Assembly (NCBI GenBank): GCA_951406725.2
Contig: OX597814.1
Span: 156,674,001-156,738,000 of the forward strand
Source of the DNA: Octopus vulgaris
Taxonomy: Eukaryota
Length of the DNA: 64,000 nucleotides
Direction of reading: 5' to 3'
Shown here: piece after piece, positions 3,226-29,489 of the stretch
Position numbering within the stretch: the first letter of the stretch is position 1
Layout: every line of letters starts with the position of its first letter
Position numbers and translations under genes: made by a program
Notes under the pieces: model-generated
Database searches by the model: none
Told to the model about the DNA's origin: nothing
Seen by the model: the letters and a program-made list of their open reading frames with translations, nothing else

Positions 3226-3811
3226 TACATATTTATATTTATACACACACACACACACACATACATATTTATATGCACAAACACACGCATATACATACAT
3301 TTATATATACACACACACATAAGTGTGAGTGTGTGTGTATAAGTCTGTATTTATTATATATCATATTTACAAATAAATAATTCTTTATAGAATATTCACT
3401 TTCCAATAATCAAAGGTGAGAGCTGCTATATGAATTTCAATTTTTTTTCAATGTTTATAATTAATTTCTTTTGTTTTGATCATGCTCCATCATTGGATTT
3501 TTTATATTTTTCTTTCATCTCCACAAATATCAAAAAAAAAGATATTTTTCAAGAAATAGAGCATAGAGTGAGCAAAGGAAAGAGAGCAAGAGAGAGAGAG
3601 AGGCGGGGTTGCAAGCGAAATATATTCAAAAGCGTGATTATTAAAAGATTTGAATATAAACATGTTTACTTAATGAAATGAGATGTTGAAGTAACCAACA
3701 CATCATCTCCCCTTCTCACACTCTCTCTTTCTCCCATCCCCTCTTATTCTTCCCTACTTACTGTACCATTATTATTAGTAGTAGTAGTAGCAGTAGTAGT
3801 TGTAATATTAT

Positions 3812-14211: not shown

Positions 14212-14690
14212 GAATGAATATGGTGGATAATGGAAAACTTCCAACTCCTGTAGTTTCGCCAATATCATTTTTGCAATGTGTGCTCTGGCATTGTCTTGCA
14301 ATAAAATATGAGTGGATCTGTTGACTAATCTAGGCTGTTTTGTTTTTGTAAGTTTCTGTATCATTTGGTCCAGTTGGCTGCAGTATAGTTTGGCCGTGAC
14401 TGACAAGCCAGGTTTAATGAAATCATAACAGATCACACCTGTGTCAGACCACCAAACACACCATCAGCCTCTTTTGATGCATTTTGCTTTTGAGACTGTA
14501 TTTTGGTGGCTCATCTTTGTCCAACCATTGTGCCGAATCTTTACACTTGTTGTATTCAATCCATTTTTCATCACATGTTACAGTTCAATTCAAAGAGGAT
14601 TCATTTTTGTGACAAGAATGTAGCAAAATGCAGGCTTCCAAACGTTGCTGTTTCTGATTTTCATTGAATTCATGTGGAACCCAATTCATG
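14212..14690 (-). pseudogene. Mariner transposase fossil
   Basis: Motifs WVPHEF, VTCDEKW, LLQDNARAH and YPPYS (cf. WVPHEL, TGDEKW, HDNARPH, YSPDL), broken by a stop and a frameshift. Confidence 0.9.
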
Positions 14691-28800: not shown

Positions 28801-29029
28801 AGAAATGAAGCAGTCTGTCGAATGGGTTTAGATTGGAATTTAGATAAATTTCAGTTGTGCAGCTATTAATGGAGACTTTCAGGACAAATTTCATAAATTC
28901 AGCAGCAGATCATCACTAGTATTGATGTTTAAGATGATGACAATATTAATGACAATATGTGCCATTTGGAACAAATGAAAAATACCTTGTACAGCTTAAT
29001 ACTTGTTTGAACATTTATCAACCAATATA

Positions 29030-29146
29030 CACCACCCTAAAGTCCAGCCCCTCCTCAAAGCGGTAGGGTGGTGTAAATGGGCAGCGTCAGAGCTATGCCG
29101 TCGGGAACTTCGGTTCCTGGTAGGGTCACCCAAAGCGAACTGGTCT
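29030..29146 (+). ncRNA. Candidate HDV-like self-cleaving ribozyme (possibly mutated)
   Basis: P1 ACCCTA/TAGGGT (extendable to 10 bp); P2 AGTCCAG/CTGGTCT (1 mismatch); P3 CCCC/GCGG (1 mismatch); L3 TCCTCAAA; GG after P1; extended P4 capped by cUUCGg; J4/2 GCGAA with C at 29136. Confidence 0.6.
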
Positions 29147-29416
29147 GGCACCGAGCGGTATTAGGGCCGCAGCCTGGCCAACGGGGCTCTGGTGAAAATT
29201 CCAAGAGGCGCCTGATCGGCAACCGGCAGCTTCGAGGTCATTCTGTCCCTGCATCTGTGGAGACTCCGTGGCAAACAGGGCATCCCATTACTCGGGATAT
29301 GCATGCGGAATGTCGGGGACCACTTGTGAATTCAATATTCTCACAAAACTTCTTCAAAAAGAGAAGAAGTTGGCTCAACCTGTCCAGGGTGAACGCCATC
29401 ACAAGTACAAGTAAGT
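29030..29416 (+). mobile_element. Complete 387-bp non-autonomous RTE-related retroposon
   Basis: GC- and CpG-rich island flanked by the 10-bp direct repeat AACCAATATA (29020-29029 and 29417-29426); short-repeat tail ACAAGTACAAGTAAGT; no Pol III A/B boxes recognised. Confidence 0.75.
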
Positions 29417-29489
29417 AACCAATATATAAGCAAAGAAGACTATATCTGTGGATCACACCTAGTCATTTTTCAATAACTGTAAATGTTTT

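What the first reader, a model, noticed from the sequence alone, without database searches (positions are those of the whole stretch)
29020..29426. Complete short retroposon headed by an HDV-like ribozyme
Seen: a 387-bp GC-rich insert with a 10-bp target-site duplication and a CAAGTA-type tail. Its first 117 nt map in order onto the HDV nested double pseudoknot: P1, P2, P3, L3 TCCTCAAA (HDV has UCCUCGCU), GG, a long P4 ending in a cUUCGg tetraloop, J4/2 GCGAA (as in genomic HDV, including the catalytic C), then the P2 3' strand. The fold starts at the element's 5' boundary. Known: HDV-like ribozymes define the 5' ends of R2, RTE and ingi/L1Tc retrotransposons. Inference: a promoterless, non-coding element made of a LINE 5' end fused to a 3' tail, which cuts itself out of read-through transcripts. 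P2 and P3 each have one mismatch, so this copy may be inactive.
Basis: partly seen in the sequence, partly recalled or inferred. Interest (0 to 1): 0.75.

Follow-up and report, generated by a model that had tools for sequence, protein, structure and literature searches.

The report
Ribozyme-headed mini-LINE with paired ends
This 387-base insert is one of many shortened copies of a jumping gene, probably in an octopus genome, that keep only its two ends; the front end is predicted to be a self-cutting RNA (larger than first drawn, and likely jammed in this copy), and the parent's two ends likely pair up so that the copying enzyme skips the middle.

Summary
The insert, its 10-bp duplication and its tail are real. 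It is nt 1-322 plus the last ~55 nt of a decayed 3.4-kb RTE-type LINE in the same genome: a bipartite element (SIDE), a known kind. Five sister LINE families fix it: P1 29032-38/29065-71, L3 29055-61, a CA:UG P1.1, a ~100-nt branched P4, predicted catalytic C29178 (not C29136), end at 29192. The core resembles trypanosome L1Tc/SIDER ribozymes. Cleavage is untested. Extra finding: the start-codon region pairs with the ORF's last codons, with compensatory changes, and deletion breakpoints cluster there, also in a distant family tested blind (8 of 12), less so in another (3 of 8). This suggests how bipartite elements arise. The scan noted ribozyme-headed RTE derivatives and paired ends before in other genomes.

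The parts
29020..29029 (+). 5' target-site duplication (10 bp)
   Evidence: sequence
29030..29031 (+). two extra bases not in the family; with 29028-29029 they extend P1 to 12 perfect pairs (29028-29039 with 29064-29075), covering the P1.1 partners
   Evidence: (pair probability 1.0); such a 2-nt extension in 2 of 52 copies with an intact start
29032..29192 (+). predicted HDV-like ribozyme, L1Tc-type core; predicted cut 5' of C29032
29032..29038 (+). P1 5' strand, pairs with 29065-29071 (C1:G at the base)
   Evidence: compensatory changes between families A, B, C, E
29044..29051 (+). P2 5' strand: 29044-46 with 29190-92, 29048-51 with 29183-86
   Evidence: outer 3 pairs kept in 5 of 5 families; inner helix changed on both sides in F
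29052..29064 (+). P3 (two C:G pairs plus a U.U mismatch; 3 full pairs in family E) closing the 7-nt L3 29055-29061
29072..29073 (+). P1.1 3' strand (UG), pairs with C29056 and A29057
   Evidence: both pairs in A, B, C, F; one pair in E
   Evidence: replaced by a 21-nt hairpin in family F
29177..29181 (+). J4/2 with predicted catalytic C29178
   Evidence: C and last A invariant, middle bases vary across five families
29193..29355 (+). rest of the LINE 5' UTR, ending just before the start codon
   Evidence: 91.9% to LINE nt 3-322
29347..29371 (+). junction hairpin (29347-55 with 29363-71): the two strands of the parent LINE's long-range helix, now adjacent; deletion junction in the loop
29360..29416 (+). 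LINE 3' end (last codons, stop, short-repeat tail 29401-29416)
   Evidence: 85.2% to LINE nt 3318-3371; frame
29417..29426 (+). 3' target-site duplication
   Evidence: sequence

Best explanation
The insert is a copy of an internally deleted RTE-type LINE that keeps the 5' UTR and the last ~55 bases, and it was likely released from a read-through transcript by a predicted HDV-like ribozyme at nt 1-161 and inserted by the parent LINE's protein. Shown: shared ends with the LINE, duplication, tail, a 5' boundary at the base of P1, and a fold kept by compensatory changes in five families. Inferred: cleavage 5' of C29032 using C29178; mobilisation in trans; and origin of the short forms by a reverse-transcriptase jump across a helix that joins the start-codon region to the last codons of the ORF. 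This copy is predicted to be jammed because flanking bases extend P1 over the P1.1 site.
For: Partner LINE G000:C4 (L031), 3377 nt, one broken APE-RT frame, RVT_1 E 5e-31. 31 of 35 family A and 26 of 29 family B heads are short bipartite forms. An unanchored descriptor gives one parse per family (A, B, C, E, window), whose P1 start equals the element boundary in A, B and E; it is the only hit in 64 kb on both strands and 2-9 of 10,000 shuffles pass. Double changes in P1, P4 closing helix and two P4 hairpins; family F (about 35% aa identity), found after the model was fixed, has the same core, a 21-nt P4 and a P2 changed on both sides. Starts at +1 in 19 of 35 (A), 23 of 29 (B), 10 of 23 (E); G precedes +1 in only 7 of 52, so no cap signature (PMC4859970). 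Long-range helix: 7 of 7 pairs in A, B, E, 5 of 7 in C, 3 double changes A to E; best partner of the start-codon region in the whole LINE lies in the last 120 nt in G, F (L204) and C; 8 of 12 short G copies break within or a few bases from it.
Against: No cleavage or RNA-end data: only contigs were available. The descriptor was tuned on families A-E; only 8 of 35 A, 13 of 29 B, 3 of 17 C, 3 of 23 E copies pass it, and F's P1 has 2 mismatches in 8, beyond its limit. A, B, C and F have a 2-pair P3; family A also lacks the conserved C of L3, and an R2 ribozyme with L3 changes was inactive (PMC3774820). Pairs with double changes (8) do not exceed the shuffle control (402 of 500). The end helix is not the best partner in 4 of 7 long copies (ranks 5, 8, 12, 18), including the A and B copies; only 3 of 8 short F copies break within 15 nt of it; 4 of 12 short G copies share a junction outside it; queries favoured complete 5' UTRs. 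RTE placement rests on anatomy, not on a tree with named references.
Confidence: 0.7

Rival explanations
1. An internal polymerase II promoter sets the 5' end; the HDV-like fold is structural, weak or vestigial, at least in family A.
For: L1Tc carries promoter and ribozyme in the same 77 nt (PMC3383444). Family A has a 2-pair P3 and lacks the conserved L3 C; its starts are more ragged than B's (19 of 35 against 23 of 29).
Against: Compensatory changes keep all five helices across families, with variation confined to positions that HDV-like ribozymes tolerate; no excess of G before +1 (7 of 52); family A still made 100 or more copies with +1 starts.
Confidence: 0.2
2. The short forms arose by DNA-level or microhomology deletion and were then selected for keeping the ends; the end helix serves translation control or protein binding, or is incidental, and does not guide a jump.
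For: Recombination was preferred for R2 SIDEs (PMC3414825) and direct-repeat microhomology for Persaeus (PMC6740152). Many junctions show 1-4 nt microhomology. A, B and E junctions mostly keep both strands. F breakpoints scatter.
Against: In G most junctions cut into the helix and destroy part of it, which fits a jump site better than a retained signal; B shows 16 junction coordinate pairs among 26 copies, all 5' breaks within -1..+30 of the start codon although 3 kb of ORF lie downstream.
Confidence: 0.3
3. One reading: 117-nt ribozyme, L3 29052-59, P1.1 GG, catalytic C29136.
For: All motifs are present; the window copy's P2 differs from the family on both sides and still pairs; overall the structure beats shuffles, through helices shared with the corrected model.
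Against: One P2 and one P3 pair form in 0 of 21 sequences; P2 keeps 2 of its 4 inner pairs in E; the segment is absent from F; the family starts two bases upstream of its P1; its L3 lacks the fixed G (PMC6326823).
Confidence: 0.03

Closest known systems
Bipartite non-autonomous LINEs / SIDEs: RTESINE, WALLSI3, Bov-A (RTE), NARTc and RIME (L1Tc/ingi), R2 SIDEs, Persaeus (CR1) (PMC5786205, PMC3414825, PMC6740152)
   Same: 5' end plus 3' end of a LINE, no ORF, no tRNA head, partner LINE in the genome; R2 SIDEs and NARTc keep the 5' ribozyme.
   Different: Here many distinct junctions per family cluster at a helix between the start-codon region and the ORF's last codons; the passages read give no such helix, and PMC5786205 calls the cause unknown.
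Trypanosomatid L1Tc/ingi/SIDER HDV-like ribozymes (PMC3185411, PMC4035085)
   Same: C at +1, L3 with A at its third position followed by U after P1, J4/2 of the G-C-Y-A-A form; L3 of families C and E is identical to that of TvSIDER1.
   Different: Two P1.1 pairs in A, B, C, F; P3 cut to two pairs; ~100-nt branched P4 (21 nt in F); 8-pair P1 in B; host is an animal RTE-type LINE.
HDV-like ribozymes at RTE and R2 5' ends (Ruminski 2011, not held, known only through PMC5786205, PMC6765202, PMC3774820)
   Same: Position at the exact 5' end, topology, cleavage-defined boundary.
   Different: Fails the standard descriptor (G1, CC:GG P1.1, 3-pair P3); whether Ruminski's RTE examples share this core could not be checked.
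Schistosoma Perere-3 RTE (PMC8501958)
   Same: Single APE-RT ORF, GTAA-type tail, ribozyme-defined 5' end; the closest named proteins are from flatworms (52-53%).
   Different: Perere-3 uses a twister variant; this family uses an HDV-like fold.

Membership tests
Bipartite non-autonomous LINE (SIDE) | 5' and 3' ends of an autonomous LINE with the ORF deleted | tested here: met
Bipartite non-autonomous LINE (SIDE) | amplified by retrotransposition: dispersed copies, duplications, tails | tested here: met
Bipartite non-autonomous LINE (SIDE) | mobilised in trans by the partner protein | not testable with these tools
   inferred from shared 3' end
HDV-like ribozyme (fold) | P1, P2, P3, P1.1, P4 in nested double-pseudoknot order starting at the 5' boundary | tested here: met
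HDV-like ribozyme (fold) | U and G of the L3 reverse wobble; J4/2 catalytic C and final A | tested here: met
   5 of 5 families
HDV-like ribozyme (fold) | Mg2+- and C-dependent self-cleavage at +1 | not testable with these tools
   no assay; no raw RNA reads
Standard HDV descriptor (PMC6326823) | G1-Y pair and CC:GG P1.1 | tested here: not met
   C1:G in A and E (G1:C in B); CA:UG P1.1
Standard HDV descriptor (PMC6326823) | three-pair P3 and fixed C in L3 | tested here: not met
   window and family A: two pairs, A in place of C; E meets both
L1Tc/ingi-type HDV-like core | C1:G, L3 U-C-A-n-n-G-Y, A:U P1.1, G-C-n-A-A J4/2 | tested here: met
   compared by eye with the supplement of PMC4035085; likeness of core, not membership of the Pr77 family
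RTE clade (partner LINE) | single APE-RT ORF without ORF1, about 3.4 kb, short-repeat tail, short duplications | tested here: met
RTE clade (partner LINE) | RT groups with named RTE references rather than Vingi/Ingi | not tested
   no named reference sequence came out
tRNA-derived SINE | tRNA-like head | tested here: not met
   the head is LINE 5' UTR from nt 1
Twister or hammerhead ribozyme | match to the Rfam models | tested here: not met
   no match at E<=10

The most novel reading that the evidence does not exclude
RTE-type LINE RNAs are closed into a loop by a helix that buries the start codon against the last codons of the ORF; the reverse transcriptase jumps across it again and again, which is why this clade spawns two-ended parasites and SINE bodies, with or without a ribozyme head. 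The heads of five families are active HDV-like ribozymes of the trypanosome type, some with only a two-pair P3, that standard searches miss.
Probability: 0.4. Interest if true: 0.72.

Novelty: new variant of a known kind. Interest (0 to 1): 0.5.

Why it matters
The element itself is ordinary: ribozyme-headed internally deleted LINEs are in print. Two things add value. The five-family series gives natural variants of an HDV-like core outside the standard descriptor (inverted P1.1, two-pair P3, P4 of 21 or about 100 nt), easy to assay side by side. And the start-codon/3'-end helix offers a testable answer to why few LINE clades make bipartite elements, stated as unknown in PMC5786205; the young family G with intact frames makes the test practical.

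Tried and rejected
Rfam at E<=10: nothing relevant. Fold energy against shuffles: uninformative (z 0.18); nested folding cannot show the pseudoknot. Catalytic C29130 (C-C-A-A inside P4) was considered and dropped: family E would pair those bases and F lacks them; the pair constraint was not honoured, so it served only as a list of candidates. Metagenome scans: 0 pattern matches, 1 distant locus. No RNA holder on record; all 24 runs were contigs, so ends and strand could not be read; lack of cover on the flanks in three runs says nothing. Family D copies were 5'-truncated; L208 and L210 gave no usable 5' end. In one search the family A 5' strand was mis-stacked by an indel; one search replaces it. 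Host gene: 94 of 117 open frames scanned, only a mariner-type transposase fragment passed its cut-off. Ruminski 2011 and Webb and Luptak 2011 are not held. No covariance model was built.

Full report
Observation. The 10-bp duplication (29020-29029, 29417-29426), the 387-bp insert (54.5% GC against 36.2%) and the tail are as described. The insert is repeated: 40 of 1584 candidates were scored, at 85-92% identity. A family-specific 20-mer has 43 exact matches in the genome and is exact in 12 of 35 sampled copies, so family A has roughly 100-150 or more copies (my arithmetic; the sample favours good copies). Rfam finds no ribozyme and ARAGORN no tRNA. The host is probably an octopus: named hits include Octopus vulgaris and a cuttlefish, and earlier notes on this genome say so.

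Partner LINE. One hit runs on into an ORF. L031 holds a decayed 3377-nt LINE with one broken APE-RT frame, no ORF1 and the same tail. The window element equals LINE nt 3-322 (91.9%) plus 3318-3371 (85.2%). Full-length relatives carry only endonuclease and RT domains. This is RTE anatomy (single ORF and GTAA-type tail as in Perere-3, PMC8501958); I built no tree, so Vingi is not formally excluded. No intact family A frame appeared among 135 scored of 39,956 candidates. Copies differ from their family majority by 4.4% (A), 2.2% (B), 4.8% (C), 12.9% (E).

Sister families. Protein and DNA searches gave four families whose heads are 84-89% alike (A, B, C, E) and later F. Short forms dominate: 31 of 35 A heads and 26 of 29 B heads (the A query included the tail, the B query did not). 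B has 277 exact matches to its 20-mer.

On 21 copies of four families, one pair of its P2 and one of its P3 form in 0 of 21; P2 is paired in 65.9% of cells. The mismatches are therefore family-wide. Family A starts at the base equivalent to 29032, two bases before its P1. Family F lacks its J4/2-P2 segment altogether.

The corrected register. P1 29032-38/29065-71, P3 two C:G pairs plus U.U, L3 29055-61, P1.1 CA:UG, P4 29078-29176, J4/2 29177-81 with C29178, P2 29044-51/29183-92. Family E has a full three-pair P3 and one A:U P1.1 pair. A descriptor loosened to admit this core gives one parse in each of A, B, C, E and the window, with P1 beginning at the element boundary in A, B and E (C's start is poorly resolved, 17 copies); it has one hit in 64 kb on both strands, 2-9 of 10,000 dinucleotide shuffles pass, and no parse appears with A, G or U at the catalytic place. 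It was tuned on these families, so the shuffle figure is not a blind test. On the 21-row alignment the structure is paired in 88.8% of cells with 46 double-change cells (0 of 500 shuffles), but the count of pairs with double changes (8) is not above shuffles, and the P4 closing helix scores 64.8% because C and E are misaligned there. The blind support is F, met after the model was written down (note): same L3 as B, CA:UG, a 7-pair P4 hairpin, catalytic C 46 nt after L3 instead of 120-124, and an inner P2 changed on both sides. F's P1 pairs at only 6 of 8 positions.

Likeness to known cores. The standard descriptor fixes G1-Y, CC:GG and U, C, G in L3 (PMC6326823); the window fails G1, CC:GG, the C and the third P3 pair. 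The trypanosomatid ribozymes cut at C1 and have one or two P1.1 pairs (PMC3185411); their supplement shows the same L3 as families C and E in TvSIDER1, which was active, and the same J4/2 forms. An active R2 ribozyme has a P3 mismatch, while one with L3 changes was inactive (PMC3774820). Activity is thus likely for B, E and F and less sure for A.

5' ends. Copies begin at +1 with at most one mismatch in 19 of 35 (A), 23 of 29 (B), 10 of 23 (E), with no shared sequence upstream. The base before +1 is G in 7 of 52 and T in 28 of 52; capped LINE-1 and SVA RNAs leave an extra G (PMC4859970), so there is no cap signature. This fits cleavage but does not exclude a promoter.

This copy. It differs from the A majority at 8 places in the ribozyme. 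Bases 29028-31 extend P1 to 12 perfect pairs over the P1.1 partners (probability 1.0; P3 falls to 0.01). Such extension is reported to lower cleavage in L1Tc and R2 (PMC3185411). The copy is predicted to be jammed. No host gene was recognised in the window (94 of 117 frames).

Paired ends. Junctions cluster: 5' breaks lie at 0..+12 of the start codon in 29 of 29 A copies and -1..+30 in 26 of 26 B copies; 3' breaks lie within -30..+3 of one site in 24 of 29 and 20 of 26; B shows 16 coordinate pairs, some perhaps one junction blurred by mutation. The bases before or over the start codon are complementary to that 3' site, inside the last codons: 7 of 7 pairs in A, B, E and 5 of 7 in C, against 4-5 when families are swapped, except A/B, which are identical. 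Three double changes separate A and E (simulated P 0.001; C 0.08; both post hoc). As a blind control, family G (34% aa identity) has its best partner for the start-codon region 36 nt from the 3' end, rank 1 of 91 sites, 14 of 15 pairs. Over seven long copies the rank was 1 for G, F-L204 and C, and 5, 8, 12, 18 for F-L206, B, E and A. I then predicted G's junctions: of 30 loci 14 are long; 9 were called bipartite and 3 more join the tail on inspection; 8 of these 12 break within or a few bases from the helix, mostly cutting into it, and 4 share one junction elsewhere. In F only 3 of 8 break within 15 nt of the helix. A jump of the reverse transcriptase across the looped RNA is the simplest reading (about 55%); selection or microhomology deletion remain open.

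Literature. PMC5786205 lists RTE bipartite elements, notes predicted RTE ribozymes and says the cause of internal deletion is unknown. PMC3414825 and PMC6740152 discuss template jumps, recombination and direct repeats; I saw no end-to-end helix in the parts read. Searches returned no paper on an octopus RTE ribozyme or on such a helix; the library is partial, Ruminski 2011 was not held, and Repbase/Dfam could not be searched. Seen: PMC3774820 abstract, five sections, passages; PMC5786205 one section, passages; PMC4035085 one section, passages, supplement parts 2-3 (figures and colours not visible); PMC3185411 one section, passages; PMC3414825 abstract, discussion; passages only of PMC6326823, PMC10879173, PMC3383444, PMC8501958, PMC6765202, PMC9115989, PMC4908430, PMC6007223, PMC4859970, PMC6740152. 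Helix names and the RTE/Vingi distinction are partly from recall.

Earlier notes. The scan reported ribozyme-headed RTE derivatives in other genomes and paired ends in a shark LINE and another RTE (seen after my own tests); none matched this sequence. They are not counted as support.

Verdict. The end helix is the part most worth testing. Interest 0.5.

Noticed in passing
L204 (G000:C9:62.05 Mb), L212-L241: Family F, a distant RTE-type LINE, starts with a compact ~90-nt version of the same HDV-like core (21-nt P4); its P1 has two mismatches. 16 of 30 loci are head fragments without a recognised 3' tail, 10 ending within 25 nt of the start codon.
   Followed up: partly
L044, L045, L173-L202: Family G: young LINE with intact 1050-aa frames, 14-of-15-pair helix between start codon and 3' end, a different 5' UTR and a shared upstream extension; probably the monomer-array RTE of note e1-8670260.
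   Followed up: partly
L063, L072, L073, L087, L092, L129: A family C subgroup has a ~200-nt 5' extension in place of P1 and P2 5' strands, with a full three-pair P3; the extension's start resembles the sequence upstream of family G's UTR. Possibly a 5' swap or a long J1/2.
   Followed up: no
window 29028-29033: The 5' junction is a perfect complement of the bases after P1, including one base that differs from the family: possibly cDNA fold-back during insertion. One contig of run X19 bridges this junction and reads T at 29030.
   Followed up: partly
G000:C5:50015142-50015562; L061; joint 29168 to 29076: Tandem repeats (about 130-140 nt period) of part of the head occur in some copies; contig depth over the UUCG hairpin far exceeds the rest of the element.
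   Followed up: no
L029, L030, L073, L074, L079, L083: Heads directly preceded by the reverse complement of the element's own 3' end (inverted arrangements).
   Followed up: no
window 14212-14463 (-): Mariner-type transposase fragment, Transposase_1 E 1e-11.
   Followed up: no
The RT is 52-61% identical to proteins from flatworms and unnamed metagenome contigs, which may reflect horizontal transfer.
   Followed up: no
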